Below, piece after piece: positions 3,020 to 15,538 of a stretch of 17,115 nt of DNA (the first letter of the stretch is position 1; each line of letters starts with the position of its first letter). This DNA is from Escherichia coli (GTDB lineage: Bacteria; Pseudomonadota; Gammaproteobacteria; Enterobacterales; Enterobacteriaceae). The translations under genes were made by a program, and so were the position numbers. Under the pieces are notes generated by a model. That model worked only from the letters and a program-made list of their open reading frames with translations. It did no database searches and was not told where the DNA came from. The stretch lies in the NCBI RefSeq assembly GCF_003334765.1, contig NZ_QOWT01000052.1. One strand, 5' to 3'.

Positions 3020-3027
3020 CTGTAAAA

Positions 3028-3053
3028 AGCCACCTCCTGAGGAGGTGGCTTTT
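3028..3053. terminator. Rho-independent terminator hairpin, possibly bidirectional
   Basis: Perfect 10-bp stem AGCCACCTCC / GGAGGTGGCT with a 3-nt loop, followed by TTTT and preceded by AAAA. Confidence 0.65.
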
Positions 3054-3096
3054 CAGAATCCCCCCTATAAGGATGGCAAATGTCATATTCCATTTT

Positions 3097-7499: not shown

Positions 7500-8477
7500 G
7501 TGGATAAGTCGTCCGGTGAGCTGGTGACACTGACACCAAACAATAACAACACCGTACAACCTGTGGCGCTGATGCGTCTGGGCGTCTTTGTACCGACCCT
7601 TAAGTCACTGAAGAACAGTAAAAAAAATACTCTGTCACGCACCGATGCCACGGAAGAACTGACGCGTCTTTCCCTGGCCCGTGCAGAAGGATTCGATAAG
7701 GTTGAGATCACCGGCCCCCGGCTGGATATGGATAACGATTTCAAGACCTGGGTGGGGATCATTCATTCCTTTGCCCGCCATAACGTGATTGGTGACAAAG
7801 TTGAACTGCCTTTTGTCGAGTTTGCAAAACTGTGTGGTATACCCTCAAGCCAGTCATCACGCAGGCTGCGTGAGCGCATCAGCCCTTCCCTGAAACGCAT
7901 TGCCGGTACCGTGATCTCCTTTTCCCGCACCGATGAGAAGCACACCCGGGAATACATCACCCATCTGGTACAGTCAGCCTACTACGATACTGAACGGGAT
8001 ATTGTTCAGTTACAGGCTGATCCCCGCCTTTTTGAACTGTACCAGTTTGACAGAAAGGTCCTTCTTCAGCTTAAGGCGATTAATGCCCTGAAGCGACGGG
8101 AGTCCGCCCAGGCACTTTACACCTTTATAGAGAGCCTGCCCCGGGATCCGGCACCGGTATCGCTGGCGCGGCTGCGTGCACGCCTCAATCTGAAGTCTCC
8201 TGTATTTTCCCAGAACCAGACGGTCAGACGGGCAATGGAGCAGTTGCGCGAGATTGGATATCTTGATTACACGGAGATCCAGCGGGGGCGGACAAAACTC
8301 TTCTGCATTCACTACCGGCGTCCCCGGTTAAAAGCACCGAATGATGAGAGTAAGGAAAATCCGTTGCCACCTTCACCTGCGGAAAAAGTCAGTCCGGAGA
8401 TGGCGGAGAAGCTTGCCCTGCTTGAAAAACTGGGCATCACGCTGGATGACCTGGAAAAACTCTTCAAATCCCGCTGA
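7500..8477 (+). CDS. repA: Plasmid replication initiator RepA, RepFIB-type
   Basis: 325-aa ORF beginning [30 protein letters not shown]..., recalled as IncFIB RepA; flanked on both sides by iteron clusters; GTG start. Confidence 0.8.
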
Positions 8478-8755: not shown

Positions 8756-9496
8756 TTACTTCAGGGGAGGCAGTGTACGCAGGATCTCCGCAGCATCCCG
8801 CCCGTCACCTGTGAAAGGCACTGCCAGCGTGGCAGCCATATCCAGTGCAAACACTCTGGTATAAACCTCCATAGAACGTGGATCCCTGTGACCAGCCAGT
8901 GCCTGGATGACTTTCCGGGGCTGGCGGTGATAGAGCATGTGCATGATATAGCTGTGCCGGAAGGTGTGTGGTGTGACCGGAATCGAAAAGTGCACCCCGT
9001 CAGCTTCGGCCCGCTTCACTGCCTGTTTCAGCCAGTTCCGCATCGTTTCATCCGTCACAGCCCATAACGGTGCACGGCGCCGGGGCCGGGTGGTGATCAT
9101 CCAGCTCTCCATCTGCCTGACATAGCTTATATCCGTCAGCGGGACCAGGCGGACTTCATCTTTTGGAGGGCGCCCGCGTCGCGCACGCACTTTTTCGGAC
9201 AGGATCCGCACAAACGGTCTTACTCCATCCAGGTCAAATGATTCCGGTGTCAGCATCCGGGCTTCGCCAATACGCATTCCGGTATTCCAGAGGGTGGCGA
9301 ACAGCATATGGTGACGCTGATCCGGCATATAGAAAAGAAGGGCACTCACTTCCGGGGCCAGCAGGTAGGCCGGTGTGGCCCCCGTGGAAGTGGCCATTCT
9401 TCTCAGGGAGAGCGCTGTTGCAAAATCCACCCCTGGCGCAATGGGTAACAGGGAGACGCGTTCTGGTGAATTCTGCAGGGGAATGACATTGTTCAT
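8756..9496 (-). CDS. int: Tyrosine site-specific recombinase (phage-integrase family)
   Basis: 246 aa with C-terminal [12 protein letters not shown]...[16 protein letters not shown], matching the R-H-R-Y catalytic region (LGH...Y motif). Confidence 0.8.
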
Positions 9497-9712
9497 GAGT
9501 TATTTTTCACGTAGCACACGCACTGTTTATGGATACAGTTATTCTGACCTGAACGCACGGATCCTTCCACGACAATAAATCGCAGCGCGCGGATCCTTTT
9601 GTTTGCTTATCACGCATTATTGCGGGTAAAACCAAATACGTAAAGGCGCGTTTTGCCGCAGGGATCCTGTCTTAAGCCAGTCATGGCGCGGGCTGAGAGC
9701 TGGTTTGCCGTT

Positions 9713-9858
9713 TTTGGGAGAATTGGGGTAATGCCAGGACAAACAGGATCGAACCAGAAGGGGGAGGGTGCAGAGAAGGAGAGGAAGCGCTACGTGAATT
9801 CTGACCTGGTACACCCCTGTAACCCTGTCTGTTTCCACGTAGCGCAATGCGGTTACTG
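9713..9858 (+). repeat. Repeat A: about 146-bp element, diverged direct copy of repeat B; contains a 10-bp inverted repeat GCGCTACGTG (9787..9796) / CACGTAGCGC (9836..9845)
   Basis: Start TTTGGGAGAATTGGGGTAAT and the core CGCTACGTGAATTCTGACCTGGTACA are near-identical to repeat B. Confidence 0.5.
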
Positions 9859-9859
9859 A

Positions 9860-10109
9860 CTACTGCCAGTTGAGATGACGCCCGGCATCCTGATGCTGAC
9901 TTAAAATACGGATAATAATAATATCTGTATCAGTCTGAATAAAATAAAGCATATGCCGTTCAACGGGCAGTGCGAAGATATCTTCCACCAGTTCAGGCCG
10001 GGGAGTGCCGATATTATTATCACTCATAACCTGAAAAATGCCGGCACCCGTAATACCAGATATCCTCCAGATCCTGACTGGCTTTAGGTGTGAGTTTAAC
10101 GGTTTTCAC
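9860..10109 (-). pseudogene. parE: ParE/RelE-family toxin, apparently frameshifted near 10050..10055
   Basis: GTG start overlaps the parD stop; N-terminal frame reads VKTVKLTPKASQDLEDIWYY.. then stop; a second frame reads ..PELVEDIFALPVERHMLYFIQTDTDIIIIRILSQHQDAGRHL, a ParE-like C-terminus. No ORF of 60 aa or more was called here. Confidence 0.5.
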
Positions 10110-10362
10110 CGGAAGCCCTCGTACCAGCCTTAACTTTTTTCAGGAACGCGTCCTTTTCCCACGCCACAGGTTCGCCGCTGCTCAGGCCTTCTGCCAGTAA
10201 ATCCCGCAGGGCCTGGAGACGTGACTCTGCCTGTTTCTCGCGCAGGAGACGAAGTGACTCGCGAATCACTTCACTCTGAGTACGATAATCACCTGATTCT
10301 ATGAGAGATTCAATGAATTCACGGAGTTCATCTCCGAGATCCACTGTCATTGTTCTGGCCAT
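10096..10362 (-). CDS. parD: ParD-family (ribbon-helix-helix) antitoxin
   Basis: 88 aa, MARTMTVDLGDELREFIESLIESGDYRTQSEVIRESLRLLREKQ...; RBS GAGG upstream; operon with the downstream toxin. Confidence 0.75.
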   Translation of the reverse strand: MARTMTVDLGDELREFIESLIESGDYRTQSEVIRESLRLLREKQAESRLQALRDLLAEGLSSGEPVAWEKDAFLKKVKAGTRASGENR

Positions 10363-10376
10363 ATTAAAGCCTCAAT

Positions 10377-10399
10377 ATTGTAAGTTTAAATCTTACAAT
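10377..10399. promoter_or_regulatory. Palindromic putative operator ATTGTAAG-N7-CTTACAAT, 15 bp upstream of the parD start
   Basis: 8-bp inverted arms around an AT-rich spacer, overlapping a candidate -10 on the minus strand. Confidence 0.45.
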
Positions 10400-10439
10400 C
10401 AGTTTATTCGATACTCAAGGGCGAGTCCAGTACTGAACA

Positions 10440-10577
10440 TTTGGGAGAAATGGGGTAATACCCAAGATAGACCAAAAAGGGAAGGGAGAAGTAAAGAAGA
10501 AGGTTCGCTACGTAAATTCTGACTTGGTACAAACCTCTATAAAAAAGAAATTTTTCATGTAACACATTTGGGTACTG
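10440..10577 (+). repeat. Repeat B: about 138-bp diverged copy of repeat A, flanked by direct 9-bp CCCAGTACT (10427..10435 and 10592..10600)
   Basis: Alignable to repeat A over its whole length at roughly three-quarters identity by eye. Confidence 0.5.
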
Positions 10578-10641: not shown

Positions 10642-12579
10642 TTAAAATAAATTATCTAATCCGAGCAAACTTTCTTTTTCCTTTTTTATCATGTTGAGAT
10701 GATTTAGTGATTTTAAATAAATATAATTATACATATCTTCAACCAAGTTTTCTAATACTAGGAAAACCCTGTTTTTTACACCTGCCTGTGTTAATAATTT
10801 ATCTATAAGCATACTGTTTTTATCGTTTATGATTCCATCAGATTTTATTTTATCGAGGCCTGAAATTATCTTTAAACATGAAGGTGTCGTAATTGCATTG
10901 TCAAAAATAATGTCATGCAAAGAGTATGTTGATAATTTTTCTATATCAGAGAAGGCGAGGACATTCAGAATGTTATCATTAAATGGACCGATTGATACAT
11001 CGTGCATAGATTCAAGTTTATTGTTATTTGATTTTCTATCTTTACGTAGTTCTTTATTTTGAACAATAACTCTCGCATCACCGATTAGTTTATAATAGAA
11101 ATTTTCAGCTAATGTGCTCGCTGAAAAATTCTCTTCTTTAAAACCAATCTCTTGCATTAACGGAATGATTAACTCTTCCGTTGTATTTTCCATGTCTATG
11201 TGGTTTAAAAAAACCGCAGTATTCAGCATAATAGAGTTATTTTTTAGTTCCTTTACCAAACTCAGCAATATCTTACTTTTTATACTAGATGCGCTGTTTT
11301 TAATGAATTCAGCCGCATGATACTCTTGAATTGTTTTATGGACAAATGTAAATATTTCGGCGCCATCTCTTCTGATCAAACCTGTGACATCGATATAGTC
11401 ATTAATAAGATCTTCGGCAAAAGTATCAGAATAATTGAGCCCCAAAACTTTAAATGATTTTTTAGTGATATTTTTTAAGTTATCCCATGATAATTGGGAT
11501 GAACTTTTTAGCGATATGTAACATAAAGCACAAAATATTTCTTTTGATTCACTAATTGAGAGGTTTGTTTTTCTATGCCTTTTATAGAAATTTTTTGTTT
11601 TATCATGGCCTTCAAATAGTATATTAAATATTCTATTGTAAAATTCTCTTGCATTTTTAGGCATTGAATCGAGATGCTTTTCACAAACACAAAGCAGTAC
11701 AGCAAGAATTGGAGTATTAATTGAAGAAAGCAATTGTTTATTTTTCTTAAGCGCTGCTATAAGTTGATCAGCTGACTCCTTTGGTAAAAAATTACCTATT
11801 ATGGAAAAAACATCTTTCTCTGTTAGTGGTTCAACATGATAATTATTTATTCCTGCAGTAGTGCATATTTCTGTTCCAGGCCGAGACGTTGATATTAATT
11901 GAGTCTGAAAAGAATCATTTAAATGCAATATTTCTTTTAAAATAGTTTCTCTAATATCAGGGGATATTTCATCAAAACCATCTAGTAGTAATATAATTTT
12001 TTTACTTTTCAGTAACCCCTTTAGGTCAGCATTAGTGCAGTTTAATTCGAGAGTAGTTAATGTTTTTATTAAACTATCTTGTATTGAATTGTTTTCCAAG
12101 TTTCTAAGATCAAAAAAGAATGGTATTTTATTAATTTTTGAATTATTACTTAAAATAGCTAGGAATATTTTTCTTAAAATTGTTGTTTTCCCTTGTCCAG
12201 CAGCGCCAATTATATTTAATATATTTTCATTTTGAATACAAAAATCATTATTAATTAAAAGGTCTTCATTTGTACGGTTGTTTTTTACCGTGAGTGGATG
12301 ATAAAATTCATCTATAAAAGCATCATCATTTAAATTATATAAAGTTCTTACTGACAAGTATCTTTTAATACATAAATCAAAATAATGAGTGAAAGTATCT
12401 TTCTTCAATATTTGTTCAATAAGTACTTTCGCATTATCAGTTCCATGTTTCCACTTTTGTGAAACTACTGAATTTAACAATTCGTAAGTTGATTTTGTTA
12501 AAGATTCACTAAAAGTTTCTACCATTTTATTGGTGGCCACAATACCCAGTGCAGCAGCAGATATTGTTAACGGTTCCAT
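10642..12579 (-). CDS. NACHT-domain NTPase (bacterial NACHT / STAND family), 645 aa
   Basis: Walker A GAAGQGKTT; NACHT-type Walker B ILLLDGFDE; sensor-1 ISTSRP; RBS AAGGAG 6 nt upstream of the ATG; AT-rich. Confidence 0.85.
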   Translation of the reverse strand: MEPLTISAAALGIVATNKMVETFSESLTKSTYELLNSVVSQKWKHGTDNAKVLIEQILKKDTFTHYFDLCIKRYLSVRTLYNLNDDAFIDEFYHPLTVKNNRTNEDLLINNDFCIQNENILNIIGAAGQGKTTILRKIFLAILSNNSKINKIPFFFDLRNLENNSIQDSLIKTLTTLELNCTNADLKGLLKSKKIILLLDGFDEISPDIRETILKEILHLNDSFQTQLISTSRPGTEICTTAGINNYHVEPLTEKDVFSIIGNFLPKESADQLIAALKKNKQLLSSINTPILAVLLCVCEKHLDSMPKNAREFYNRIFNILFEGHDKTKNFYKRHRKTNLSISESKEIFCALCYISLKSSSQLSWDNLKNITKKSFKVLGLNYSDTFAEDLINDYIDVTGLIRRDGAEIFTFVHKTIQEYHAAEFIKNSASSIKSKILLSLVKELKNNSIMLNTAVFLNHIDMENTTEELIIPLMQEIGFKEENFSASTLAENFYYKLIGDARVIVQNKELRKDRKSNNNKLESMHDVSIGPFNDNILNVLAFSDIEKLSTYSLHDIIFDNAITTPSCLKIISGLDKIKSDGIINDKNSMLIDKLLTQAGVKNRVFLVLENLVEDMYNYIYLKSLNHLNMIKKEKESLLGLDNLF

Positions 12580-12867
12580 TTTTGCTCCTTCAAAAAATTA
12601 TAAAGTGACTGTCTAAATTCATTTAGAATAAAAAGGATAATTACTGATTCTTGATATGGAAGTTATAAAGTGGTTCATATTAAGAAATTCCAAAACCTAA
12701 AGTGTTTGTAACTATATAAAAAATAGATAATAAATCAAGGTTGTTGACATAAAATTTGACACGACGAACTGAAACTCAATGTGGACTAAGGAAAGCACTT
12801 ACCCTATTGTAAAGCATTGATTTAAAATGTTATTTTTTATATTTAACATAATCTTTGTTATGCGCAC

Positions 12868-13570
12868 TAAGGGTGTAACAGCAAAGTTGTAATGTCCGCC
12901 TTGGGCTAAGTTAAGATGTCCGGCGTGTATAATCAAGTAAGGATTACCATGACGGCTCTCGCAGCGGAGTTTTTCACTTTGGATGAAGTTAACCGACTCA
13001 AGATTATTCAGGACGTCATCGACCGGCGTCTGACAACACAGATGGCAGCGCAGCGGCTTGGTATCTCCGACCGCCAGTGCCGTCGTCTGCTTGCGCGTTA
13101 TCGTGAAGATGGTCCGCTTGGCATGACCAGCCGCGTGTCGAAATCACTCACTGTGCAGTACGACAAAGTGCTTTACCTCATTGAAGACAATGAGTTCAGT
13201 CGTCGGGCGATTGGTAAATACATTGATGTCTGGCATTACCCTGACGGACATAAAGAGCTCCGGCTTAATGGCGTATCAATTCCCTACTCCACCTATGACA
13301 AACTGTCTGAAATCGATCAGGGTGCCATTGTGGACAATAAACGTCTTGGGCGTGCGCTGGAGATGGCGCAACTTGTGCAGGCCGAACGGGATAATAACCG
13401 GTCACAATCAGTGCCATCCGGTGACGGCCCTTCACGCAGGCGCAAAGCCCCTACGACGAAGAAATCCCAGCGTTCTTTGGACCAGGACGATATGTTCAAT
13501 GCACTTGTAAAACTTCAGACACGAGCTGAGGAGATTTTTGGTGAACGCAACCAAAAATGATGTTTTGATA
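12868..13570 (+). mobile_element. ISNCY/IS481-like IS remnant with an internally deleted transposase gene
   Basis: Left-end sequence AAGGGTGTA... is shared with the full copy at about 15675; the gene lacks the catalytic core. Confidence 0.5.
12949..13560 (+). pseudogene. Internally deleted DDE transposase derivative: N-terminal HTH fused in frame to the C-terminal domain (about 280 aa of catalytic core missing)
   Basis: Residues ..NRLKIIQDVIDRRL..GPLGM and ..LTVQYDKVLYLIEDNEFSRRAIGKYIDVWHYPDGHKELRLNG.. align to both ends of the 415-aa transposase at 15794..17041. Extended -10 TGTATAAT and RBS AAGGA precede the ATG at 12949. Confidence 0.6.
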
Positions 13571-13611: not shown

Positions 13612-14658
13612 ATGATAACGTTTTCTATGGATGAAAGTGGCTATACGGGTTATGACTTACTCCACAAAGAGCAAAAATTCCAAGGCGCGTCATCAATATT
13701 AATAAACCATGATGACGCCAGTCGTCTGATAAAAGAATATTTCCCCAAACTTCAAGCCGATGAATTGAAGTACAGCTCGCTGAAAAGAAGAGATTCCAAC
13801 CGCAAGCCATTATTTGAATTGCAAAAGCATCTCTTATCTAATTACCCATGTATAACATGCGTAGGTGATAAACGCTTTTTACTAATTCTTATGTTCATCG
13901 ATTATGCTGTTGAACCATTCTATTATGATTTTGGGATTAATCTTTATGAGGATGGCGGTAACTTCTCAATGGCATCAATGGTGTATTACGTTGGACCAGC
14001 GTATTATGGCTCTGCCTTTGATGATGTTCTGCTTCAGTTTCAAAATGCTATGAAAGAAAAAACATTAGATTCAGTGAGTTTGCTAATAAGCAAAATAAGG
14101 AGGCTTGACTGGCAAAGGTTAAAAGAGTTTTTTGGTCCTTTGGCATTTAACCACCCAGATTGTATTGATGCCATCATGACTGATGGAATTAGCACTGATG
14201 CCTCATTTACTATTTTAAATGCATTAATTTCTCGCACGGAAATGATGTCCTCTGGAGAGTATGCAATTGAGCATGATCGTTCTAAAAATCTGCTAACTTA
14301 CAATGAACGCCTTAACTTTTTGATCAATTGTGATAAGGAAGGAGAGTTTAAACATTCCGAGATAGCAACTATCTCATTCCCACTAAACCTTAAAAAAGTC
14401 TATCAAATTGATTCGAAAGAAAGCCCAAGCGTGCAATTGTGTGATGTTCTTATAGGTGCATGTATTGAATCAGTTTATCAATTAATGGACTCTAAGGTAC
14501 TCAATCAAAATTCCGTTCTTTCACTTTACCAAGATAGCCAGTTAATACATTTCATACCTGATATAGATTTTGAAGGACAGAAAAAATTTAGGAAAGGCAG
14601 TCAAAGTGAGGAGTATCTTACGTTTATTCAAAATGAAATCTACTCTAGTAAACTTTAA
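13612..14658 (+). CDS. DUF3800-like protein (uncharacterised), 348 aa
   Basis: N-terminal FSMDESGYTG (DESG motif) and C-terminal VQLCDVLIGA (QxxD-like motif), as recalled for DUF3800; RBS GGAG; AT-rich. Confidence 0.6.
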   Translation: MITFSMDESGYTGYDLLHKEQKFQGASSILINHDDASRLIKEYFPKLQADELKYSSLKRRDSNRKPLFELQKHLLSNYPCITCVGDKRFLLILMFIDYAVEPFYYDFGINLYEDGGNFSMASMVYYVGPAYYGSAFDDVLLQFQNAMKEKTLDSVSLLISKIRRLDWQRLKEFFGPLAFNHPDCIDAIMTDGISTDASFTILNALISRTEMMSSGEYAIEHDRSKNLLTYNERLNFLINCDKEGEFKHSEIATISFPLNLKKVYQIDSKESPSVQLCDVLIGACIESVYQLMDSKVLNQNSVLSLYQDSQLIHFIPDIDFEGQKKFRKGSQSEEYLTFIQNEIYSSKL

Positions 14659-14893: not shown

Positions 14894-15538
14894 TCATACC
14901 TGTTTTCTTAGAAGCTGGTCAATATAGCTGATCGTGTGAAATTCACGTTCGATTTTCATACAAACATTTGGCAACTGTTCGATAAGAAAGTTTTCATCGA
15001 AGCGATCTAGAAGGTACGTGAGGGTAATAGTATCAATTTTATTCAATTTTCTATGTAAAACTGAAGAACGCCTCACAAAATCGTTTTTCCTTAACTCTTG
15101 AATAACATCGATCAAAATAGGGTTGAATAATTCTTTTTCTGGAAAGGACTTGTAAATTTTCGAATCAATAATTTGAGAAGGATCTAAGCGGTTAATTAAA
15201 TTATTACTGCTAACTATGTAGCACTTATCAATCATCAAACCTTCCGTTTTGCAACGGTCTAAATCACAAGCGTTTATTATACATTCTTTAAATACAACAT
15301 GTCGCAGGCTCCCGCCTCTAAAAAGGACTCCTCTTAATAAAGAGGATTGGAAAAGACTGCCAGTAAAGTTACACCATTTCAATGAAGCACCAATAAAAGA
15401 CGTGTTCGTGAATTTTGACTGAAAAAAATTTGAATGGTAACTGTGTGTCTTATTGAAATTTTTATTTATAAAATTCCTACTCGCAACATCACGATTATTG
15501 TAGCTGAAAGCATTTTTGCTCTTCTTATTCCTTGCCAT
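14894..15538 (-). CDS. Pentapeptide-repeat protein: N-terminal pentapeptide-repeat region plus a C-terminal domain of unknown function, 214 aa
   Basis: Residues about 20..95 show a 5-residue periodicity (RNFIN KNFNK .. SNFFQ SKFTN TSFIG ASLKW CNFTG SLFQS SLLRG VLFRG GSLRH VVFKE) with F/L at the centre position. Confidence 0.6.
   Translation of the reverse strand: MARNKKSKNAFSYNNRDVASRNFINKNFNKTHSYHSNFFQSKFTNTSFIGASLKWCNFTGSLFQSSLLRGVLFRGGSLRHVVFKECIINACDLDRCKTEGLMIDKCYIVSSNNLINRLDPSQIIDSKIYKSFPEKELFNPILIDVIQELRKNDFVRRSSVLHRKLNKIDTITLTYLLDRFDENFLIEQLPNVCMKIEREFHTISYIDQLLRKQV

What the first reader, a model, noticed from the sequence alone, without database searches (positions are those of the whole stretch)
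10377..10399. Palindromic candidate operator upstream of parD
ATTGTAAG-N7-CTTACAAT lies 15 bp upstream of the parD start and overlaps the likely promoter, the usual arrangement for RHH-antitoxin autorepression.
Basis: inference. Interest (0 to 1): 0.3.

Follow-up and report, generated by a model that had tools for sequence, protein, structure and literature searches.

The report
ParD antitoxin operator palindrome
The 23-bp palindrome just upstream of the plasmid antitoxin gene parD is almost certainly the DNA site where ParD binds to shut off its own promoter; this is an ordinary arrangement, but the site is unusually well conserved across many bacteria.

Summary
ATTGTAAG-TTTAAAT-CTTACAAT lies at 10377-10399, 14 nt upstream of the ATG (10362) of a minus-strand 88-aa ParD antitoxin (RHH, PF03693/TIGR02606). 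The window is an E. coli IncFIA/FIB pAA-type plasmid.

The core TGTAAG-N7-CTTACA matches at 11 or 12 of 12 positions upstream of parD in 34 of 38 gammaproteobacterial homolog loci (48-93% protein identity). Their flanks and spacers are unrelated. No match of 11/12 or better occurred in 1900 shuffles. The site tracks the N-terminal beta-strand MARTxTV. Cyanobacterial ParDs (MNVSLT) carry a different palindrome.

The closest studied relative, PrpA of Pseudoalteromonas rubra (61% identical, same beta-strand), has a published footprint motif, TTTGTAAT. That motif is the left arm of the same architecture (TGTAAT-N7-CTTATA).

The promoter is inferred, not shown: TGGACT-17-TAAACT, with the -10 ending 3 nt before the palindrome. 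The operator would then cover the transcription start.

parE downstream carries a 47-bp frameshifting deletion, so ParD would act alone. This is the only such site on the 79-kb plasmid, and none lies in the RepFIB origin. It is a new member of a known kind, of low to moderate interest.

The parts
10377..10399 (.). Palindrome ATTGTAAG-TTTAAAT-CTTACAAT, the candidate ParD operator. The conserved core TGTAAG-N7-CTTACA is 10379-10397, with its dyad centre at 10388.
   Evidence: Direct reading and the repeat finder I19. The core is conserved in 34/38 gammaproteobacterial parD loci. The information-content table shows about 2 bits in the arms and about 0 in the flanks.
10401..10406 (-). Inferred -10 hexamer TAAACT, 3 nt upstream of TGTAAG
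   Evidence: It occupies the same position as the TATACT/TATAGT hexamers in most Enterobacterales homolog loci. This is an inference with no transcript data.
10424..10429 (-). Inferred -35 hexamer TGGACT, 17 nt upstream of TAAACT
   Evidence: Promoter scoring gives 8/12. There is weak TGG conservation at -32..-30 in the anchored table. Inference.
10390..10395 (-). Alternative -10 TAAGAT inside the palindrome, paired with -35 TTGAGT at 10413-10418
   Evidence: It scores equally, 8/12, but is less consistent with the homolog loci.
10370..10373 (-). Shine-Dalgarno GAGG, 7 nt before the ATG
   Evidence: Direct reading. A purine-rich block lies at the same position in the homologs (positions 22-25).
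10096..10362 (-). parD, an 88-aa RHH antitoxin and the presumed repressor that binds the palindrome
   Evidence: TIGR02606 at 84 bits against a cutoff of 46. PF03693 at E 1e-17. 61% identical to PrpA, PDB 7YCS. An in-frame TGA 12 nt upstream of the ATG rules out an N-terminal extension (direct reading).
9860..10109 (-). parE pseudogene: GTG at 10109, a 47-bp internal deletion between 10045 and 10044, a frameshift, and a premature TGA ending at 10020
   Evidence: Alignment with intact 98-aa parE genes of CP056358 and Salmonella p24399.

Best explanation
The palindrome is the operator of the parD(E) promoter.

Proposed mechanism: ParD dimerises through its N-terminal ribbon-helix-helix domain. 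The two-stranded beta-ribbon (residues A2-D8, RTMTVD) inserts into the major groove. One dimer reads each arm (TGTAAG / CTTACA), with arm centres 13 bp apart across an A/T-rich spacer. The two dimers probably contact each other as a tetramer, as in Arc, CopG and PrpA.

The site lies immediately downstream of the inferred -10 (TAAACT) and covers the transcription start. Bound ParD would therefore block RNA polymerase binding or open-complex formation and repress its own transcription. Because parE is broken in this plasmid, ParD alone is the repressor, without toxin-dependent tuning.

Shown: the palindrome, the RHH identity of ParD, conservation of the site with the gene, and its correspondence to the PrpA site. 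Inferred: the promoter position, the stoichiometry, and the repression itself.
For: 1. ParD is a PF03693/TIGR02606 RHH antitoxin.

2. TGTAAG-N7-CTTACA matches at 11/12 or better upstream of parD in 34 of 38 gammaproteobacterial loci. None of 1900 shuffled upstream regions reaches 11/12, and control regions 300 nt downstream reach at most 8/12.

3. In 30 loci with unrelated flanks, the arms carry about 2 bits per position. Positions 7 (A, 26/30) and 13 (T, 24/30) were not part of the search pattern and are also conserved. The spacer is always 7 nt but varies in sequence, and the flanks carry about 0 bits.

4. Within each 1-1.7 kb locus, a match of 10/12 or better occurs only upstream of parD. 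Salmonella p24399 has two parDE modules, each with its own site.

5. The site covaries with the recognition strand. Loci encoding MARTxT(V/F/I) have it. The cyanobacterial clade (MNVSLT) has a different palindrome. L039 and L043, which have altered strands, lack it.

6. PrpA is 61% identical and has an identical RTMTVD strand. It represses its promoter about 9-fold, shifts it in EMSA, and protects 30 bp containing TTTG(T/A)AAT (PMC7848731). In pMBL6842 that motif is the left arm of TGTAAT-gatatgt-CTTATA.

7. V. cholerae ParD2 similarly uses 6-bp boxes separated by 7 and 4 A/T bp, overlapping the -10 and +1 (10.1101/2021.03.22.436508).
Against: There are no binding or expression data for this ParD. 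The consensus scan found no sigma-70 promoter at the site. Both hand-found candidates are weak, at 8/12. The arms never show compensatory change, so conservation cannot by itself separate protein recognition from some other sequence-specific function. The loci are phylogenetically related, so they are not fully independent samples. In close IncF relatives the outer arm positions are degraded: CATGTAAA in CP056358 and 55989p.
Confidence: 0.87

Rival explanations
1. It is a chance palindrome in AT-rich intergenic DNA with no function.
For: Perfect 8-bp inverted repeats occur at 7 places in the window, with about 4 hits expected from shuffles. The region is AT-rich.
Against: The same 12 core positions recur upstream of parD in 34/38 loci with unrelated flanks, and none of 1900 shuffles reaches 11/12. 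The core occurs once in the 79-kb plasmid.
Confidence: 0.02
2. It acts as an RNA hairpin in the parD 5' leader, affecting mRNA stability or translation, or as a terminator for upstream transcription, rather than as a protein-binding DNA site.
For: If transcribed it folds into an 8-bp stem of -6.3 kcal/mol, z = -3.0. The commonest arm variant, C18 to T (7/30 loci), would keep a G-U pair. The NACHT gene upstream is on the same strand, so read-through transcripts could contain it.
Against: No U tract follows it on either strand, and the stem has one G-C pair per arm half, so it is not an intrinsic terminator. The arms are invariant in sequence with no compensatory changes over wide divergence, which a structure-only constraint would not require. 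By homology the -10 ends 3 nt before the stem, so the transcript would start inside the left arm. In marine loci the right arm doubles as the -10, which is a DNA-level role.
Confidence: 0.05
3. It is bound by ParD mainly for another purpose, as PrpA binds ori iterons to limit plasmid copy number. Alternatively, it is a site for the neighbouring tyrosine recombinase.
For: PrpA binds ori iterons as well as its own promoter (PMC7848731). Here parD lies 1.6 kb from the RepFIB initiator gene and next to a tyrosine recombinase gene. The module is flanked by ~135-nt repeats.
Against: No TGTAAG-type site or TTTGWAAT motif occurs in the RepFIB iteron regions. No second site of 11/12 or better occurs anywhere on the plasmid. 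The palindrome travels with parD into chromosomal contexts, whatever lies next to it.
Confidence: 0.05

Closest known systems
PrpA/PrpT of Pseudoalteromonas rubra plasmid pMBL6842 (PF03693 ParD-type antitoxin; PDB 7YCS/7YCU/7YCV/7YCW; PMC7848731, PMC9731233)
   Same: The antitoxins are 61% identical, with an identical RTMTVD beta-strand. The gene order is the same, with a 98-aa ParE-type toxin that is 37% identical to the intact relatives' ParE. The operator architecture is the same: TGTAAT-N7-CTTATA in pMBL6842 against TGTAAG-N7-CTTACA here. PrpA alone represses and footprints its promoter.
   Different: In pMBL6842 the site lies between the -35 and -10, and its right arm overlaps a TATAAT -10. 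Here it lies just after the inferred -10. PrpA also binds ori iterons, and no such sites occur in this plasmid. The toxin gene is broken here. [quoted passage not shown]
Vibrio cholerae ParD2/ParE2 operator (PDB 7B22/7R5A; 10.1101/2021.03.22.436508; PMC10776004)
   Same: It belongs to the same Pfam family (E 1e-11). Its operator has 6-bp boxes separated by A/T-only spacers of 7 and 4 bp. The operator overlaps the -10 and +1. One RHH dimer binds per box.
   Different: The box sequence differs (G[G/A]TA[C/T][C/T]). There are three boxes, read by a 6:2 ParD2:ParE2 assembly, and the toxin is needed for tight binding. Here there are two arms and no functional toxin.
Arc, Mnt and CopG repressors (MetJ/Arc/CopG RHH superfamily)
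   Same: These are small RHH dimers that bind as a dimer of dimers to a roughly 20-bp dyad-symmetric operator overlapping the promoter. This comparison rests on established knowledge, as cited in PMC9731233.
   Different: They are not antitoxins and lack a toxin-binding C-terminal tail. Their half-site spacing is shorter (about 11 bp in Arc) than the 13 bp here.
ParDE-I of IncI/IncF plasmids (Kamruzzaman & Iredell 2019, PMC6614396)
   Same: It is a ParE-type TA module on IncF/IncI resistance plasmids of Enterobacteriaceae.
   Different: Its antitoxin belongs to COG3905, not PF03693, and no operator was defined. It is not the same module.

Membership tests
Autoregulatory operator of a PF03693/TIGR02606 (ParD/PrpA-type) RHH antitoxin | The adjacent downstream gene encodes an RHH antitoxin of this family | tested here: met
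   TIGR02606 at 84.4 bits against a cutoff of 46.2. PF03693 at E 1.1e-17. PDB homologs 7YCS, 7B22 and 3KXE.
Autoregulatory operator of a PF03693/TIGR02606 (ParD/PrpA-type) RHH antitoxin | A dyad-symmetric site lies within or adjacent to the core promoter, upstream of the antitoxin start codon | tested here: inconclusive
   The palindrome lies 14 nt upstream of the ATG. The promoter is only inferred: TGGACT-17-TAAACT or TTGAGT-17-TAAGAT, each 8/12. The consensus scan found none.
Autoregulatory operator of a PF03693/TIGR02606 (ParD/PrpA-type) RHH antitoxin | The site is conserved upstream of orthologs while surrounding DNA diverges (phylogenetic footprint) | tested here: met
   34/38 loci match at 11/12 or better, against 0/1900 shuffles. 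Arms carry about 2 bits and flanks about 0 bits.
Autoregulatory operator of a PF03693/TIGR02606 (ParD/PrpA-type) RHH antitoxin | The site corresponds to an experimentally mapped binding site of a homolog | tested here: met
   The pMBL6842 prpA upstream region has TGTAAT-N7-CTTATA, which contains the published footprint motif TTTGTAAT (PMC7848731). The exact footprint borders are shown in a figure that is not held as text.
Autoregulatory operator of a PF03693/TIGR02606 (ParD/PrpA-type) RHH antitoxin | The antitoxin physically binds the site and represses transcription | not testable with these tools
   This needs EMSA or footprinting and a reporter assay.
Toxin-modulated (conditional cooperativity / ratio-sensing) TA operator | An intact cognate toxin is co-expressed from the same operon | tested here: not met
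   parE has a 47-bp frameshifting deletion in the window. It is intact in relatives CP056358 and p24399.
PrpA-type replication control (antitoxin competing with Rep at ori iterons) | Operator-like motifs occur in the iterons of the plasmid origin | tested here: not met
   The RepFIB iterons are CTGACTACAGCTTATAT-like. No TTTGWAAT occurs in the window. Only chance-level 3-mismatch hits were found (12 found, 8.6 expected). There is no second site of 11/12 or better in the 79-kb plasmid.
Intrinsic terminator or regulatory RNA hairpin | A G+C-rich stem followed by a U tract, or compensatory covariation in the stem | tested here: not met
   The terminator scan did not call it. The stem is AT-rich at -6.3 kcal/mol with no U run. 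The arms are invariant without compensatory changes. There was no Rfam hit.

The most novel reading that the evidence does not exclude
ParD of this IncFIB-linked module, which is retained with an intact operator although its toxin gene is destroyed, might have a second role beyond autoregulation. One possibility is a PrpA-like brake on the adjacent RepFIB replicon through degenerate sites that my pattern search would miss. Another is an 'anti-addiction' immunity factor against ParE toxins of competing plasmids. The family-wide 19-bp dyad TGTAAGA-N5-TCTTACA would then define a small regulon rather than a single autoregulatory site.
Probability: 0.07. Interest if true: 0.55.

Novelty: new member of a known kind. 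Interest (0 to 1): 0.28.

Why it matters
The finding itself is routine: an RHH antitoxin with a palindromic operator at its own promoter. The comparison adds three things.

First, it gives a clean family-wide operator consensus, TGTAAG(A)-N5/7-(T)CTTACA, for the PrpA-like branch of ParD antitoxins. This branch is common on IncF and other plasmids of Enterobacterales. The consensus refines the published PrpA motif (TTTG(T/A)AAT) into a 19-bp dyad.

Second, the operator covaries with the N-terminal beta-strand across ParD clades. That pairing could serve as a starting set for studying RHH recognition rules.

Third, this pAA-type virulence plasmid keeps the antitoxin and its operator after losing the toxin. 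This bears on how TA modules decay or are repurposed.

None of these would surprise a specialist.

Tried and rejected
- Rfam scan of the whole window at gathering thresholds found nothing.
- The consensus promoter/terminator scan called nothing at the palindrome. Promoters had to be placed by hand and by homology.
- I looked for PrpA-like binding motifs in the RepFIB iterons and across the whole plasmid. Only chance-level matches appeared, so the copy-number-control idea was dropped for lack of support.
- I checked whether the ParDE-I system of IncI/IncF plasmids is the same module. It is not, because its antitoxin is COG3905.
- Literature searches for the motif strings returned only primer sequences.
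- The PNAS supplement holds no footprint sequence as text.
- The 101-aa ParD annotation in CP056358 would place the palindrome inside the coding region. I rejected it as a likely artefact. That locus has one base fewer between the Shine-Dalgarno and the ATG, which appears to open the upstream frame. In the window an in-frame TGA lies 12 nt upstream of the ATG.
- One strand folding failed because the sequence was too long. I did not repeat it for the 135-nt repeats.

Full report
OBSERVATION

The window reads ATTGTAAG (10377-10384), TTTAAAT (10385-10391), CTTACAAT (10392-10399). The two 8-bp arms are perfect reverse complements. The repeat finder lists the site as 11-nt arms at 91% complementarity, 1 nt apart (I19).

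The only sizeable ORF next to it is on the minus strand, 10096..10362 (88 aa, ATG at 10362). Fourteen nucleotides separate the palindrome from the ATG. A GAGG Shine-Dalgarno lies at 10373-10370, 7 nt before the ATG. An in-frame TGA 12 nt upstream of the ATG excludes a longer ORF.

The palindrome alone is only mildly unusual. Perfect 8-bp inverted repeats with a spacer of 12 or less give 14 hits at 7 places in the window, against 4.2 +/- 2.5 hits in shuffles. About 2% of shuffles of the 78-nt upstream region contain one.

WHAT SURROUNDS IT

The window is 100% identical over the tested 1.16 kb to E. coli plasmid pB16EC0481-1 (CP088797.1, IncFIA/FIB). That plasmid carries the aggregative-adherence genes aggR, aap and aat.

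The 88-aa protein is a ParD-family RHH antitoxin. It scores 84 bits against TIGR02606 (cutoff 46) and E 1e-17 against PF03693. Neighbouring genes are:
- the RepFIB initiator, 7500-8477 on the plus strand;
- a 246-aa tyrosine recombinase, 8756-9496 on the minus strand;
- a NACHT-domain protein, 10642-12579 on the minus strand.

Downstream of parD, the parE toxin gene is a pseudogene. Intact 98-aa parE genes exist in CP056358 and Salmonella p24399. Relative to these, the window lacks 47 bp between 10045 and 10044. This shifts the frame and gives a TGA ending at 10020.

COMPARATIVE TEST

I aligned the window ParD with nine homologs. I used that alignment to fetch 80 loci from one genome per bacterial species. 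ParD identity across them ranges from 93% down to 36%.

In the gammaproteobacterial set (L006-L043, 48-93% identity) the upstream regions are unrelated, apart from a few plasmid-type copies. Even so, 24 of 38 loci carry an exact TGTAAG-N7-CTTACA and 10 more match at 11/12. All of these sites lie 10-42 nt upstream of the ATG.

Controls were clean:
- None of 1900 shuffled upstream regions reached 11/12.
- Control regions 300 nt downstream reached at most 8/12.
- The more distant loci L044-L085 (mostly cyanobacterial) reached at most 10/12.

Within each locus the site occurs nowhere else. Salmonella p24399 has two parDE modules and each has its own copy.

I then anchored 30 loci with dissimilar flanks on the site. 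The arms carry about 2 bits per position. Positions 7 (A, 26/30) and 13 (T, 24/30) were not in the search pattern, and they are also conserved. The spacer is always 7 nt, A/T-rich and variable in sequence. The flanks carry about 0 bits. The family consensus is therefore TGTAAGA-N5-TCTTACA.

The window's 8-bp arms extend this core outward by two positions that are not conserved. In close IncF relatives the left arm is CATGTAAA, so only the core is constrained.

LINK TO THE PROTEIN

Loci with the site encode an N-terminal strand MARTxT(V/F/I). The cyanobacterial clade encodes MNVSLT and carries a different conserved palindrome, ATAACAA...TTGTTAT. The two gammaproteobacterial loci without the site (L039, L043) have altered strands. 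This is the pattern expected if the beta-ribbon reads the arms.

LINK TO EXPERIMENT

The closest solved relative is PrpA of Pseudoalteromonas rubra pMBL6842 (7YCS, E 1e-26). It is 61% identical and has the same RTMTVD strand.

PMC7848731 reports that PrpA represses its own promoter (1730 to 198 Miller units) and shifts it in EMSA. PrpA protects a single 30-bp region over the -35 and part of the -10. The reported recognition motif is TTTG(T/A)AAT.

I read the pMBL6842 sequence. It is ...GTTTGTAATGATATGTCTTATAATTG..., which is TGTAAT-N7-CTTATA. The published motif is its left arm, and its right arm overlaps a perfect TATAAT. The experimentally mapped PrpA site therefore has the same dyad architecture as the window site.

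V. cholerae ParD2 belongs to the same Pfam family. It likewise uses 6-bp boxes separated by A/T-only spacers of 7 and 4 bp, overlapping the -10 and +1 (10.1101/2021.03.22.436508).

PROMOTER (INFERRED)

The consensus scan found no promoter at the site. Two hand-found candidates each score 8/12:
- TGGACT (10429-10424) -17- TAAACT (10406-10401);
- TTGAGT (10418-10413) -17- TAAGAT (10395-10390).

In most Enterobacterales homolog loci the best promoter has a TATACT- or TATAGT-type -10 starting 8-9 nt before TGTAAG. That is the position of TAAACT in the window, so I favour the first candidate. Transcription would then start inside the left arm and the operator would span roughly -1 to +18.

With either candidate the site overlaps the core promoter or the start point. 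In marine loci, including prpA, the site instead sits between the -35 and -10, and its right arm doubles as the -10. The position of the operator relative to the promoter therefore varies between lineages.

MECHANISM

The most likely mechanism is that two ParD RHH dimers bind, one per arm. The arm centres are 13 bp apart across a bendable A/T spacer. The dimers probably touch as a tetramer, as modelled for PrpA (PMC9731233). Binding would occlude RNA polymerase at the start site.

With parE inactivated, ParD alone is the repressor, and any toxin-ratio tuning is lost. The binding, stoichiometry and repression steps are all inferred.

RIVALS

Chance is excluded by the conservation.

An RNA hairpin is possible in principle (-6.3 kcal/mol). 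However, there is no U tract, and the arms show no compensatory change. The predicted start lies inside the stem. In some lineages the arm also serves as a -10, which is a DNA-level role.

A PrpA-like role at the replication origin finds no support. The RepFIB iterons are unrelated in sequence. No TTTGWAAT motif occurs in the window. Three-mismatch hits are at chance level, 12 found against 8.6 expected. The whole 79-kb plasmid has only this one site at 11/12 or better.

NOVELTY AND VERDICT

This is an ordinary autoregulatory operator of a known kind of repressor, next to a known kind of gene.

I found no paper describing this particular E. coli plasmid ParD or the 19-bp family dyad. The ParDE-I system of IncI/IncF plasmids is a different antitoxin family.

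I rate it a new member of a known kind, with interest about 0.28 and confidence in the operator reading about 0.87.

Noticed in passing
window 9860-10109 (minus strand): parE is a pseudogene. A 47-bp internal deletion between 10045 and 10044 shifts the frame and gives a premature stop ending at 10020. ParD is therefore an orphan antitoxin on this plasmid. Some records annotate the 55-aa remnant as a RelE/ParE toxin.
   Followed up: yes
window 9713-9846 and 10440-10566, with a partial copy at 9466-9551: Direct repeats of about 135 nt (75-91% identical) flank the parDE module. They contain an imperfect hairpin (9787-9810 / 9822-9845). The element is the conserved region next to the RepFIB-linked tyrosine recombinase in thousands of IncF plasmids. 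In Salmonella p24399 it separates two tandem parDE modules. It might be a recombination site through which the module was inserted. Its function is unknown.
   Followed up: partly
L045-L085 (ParD homolog loci, mostly cyanobacterial), about 20-90 nt upstream of the start codon: These more distant ParD homologs (N-terminus MNVSLT) carry a different conserved palindrome, ATAACAA-N(4-8)-TTGTTAT, upstream of the gene. It is presumably the operator of that clade.
   Followed up: partly
L031 638-683, L034 602-647, L087 539-583: Some marine and Legionella parD loci have two tandem copies of the TGTAAG-N7-CTTAYA site, 26-27 bp apart start to start. The upstream copy carries CTTATA.
   Followed up: no
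L003 2144-2449 (CP056358.1) and protein cluster P0049 (101 aa, 165 contigs): ParD is annotated with a 13-codon N-terminal extension that would run through the operator. A 1-nt difference between the Shine-Dalgarno and the ATG appears to open the upstream frame, so this is probably a start-codon annotation artefact.
   Followed up: partly
window 10642-12579 (minus strand), 13612-14658, 14894-15538: An AT-rich block encodes a 645-aa NACHT-domain NTPase, a DUF3800 protein and a pentapeptide-repeat protein (annotation of CP088797.1). It looks like a possible defence island inserted beside the RepFIB/parD region. Three TTGTAA hexamers cluster at 12706-12892.
   Followed up: no
window 3026-3056; also 1599, 7857, 8536, 11102, 13534: These are other perfect inverted repeats of 8 bp or more. 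The one around 3026-3056 is a long nested palindrome, giving six overlapping hits. None was examined.
   Followed up: no
CP088797.1 8532-8962 (outside the window): The same plasmid has a second small RelE/ParE-family toxin gene, preceded by a 270-bp ORF, just downstream of the IncFII repA. No TGTAAG-type site is near it.
   Followed up: no
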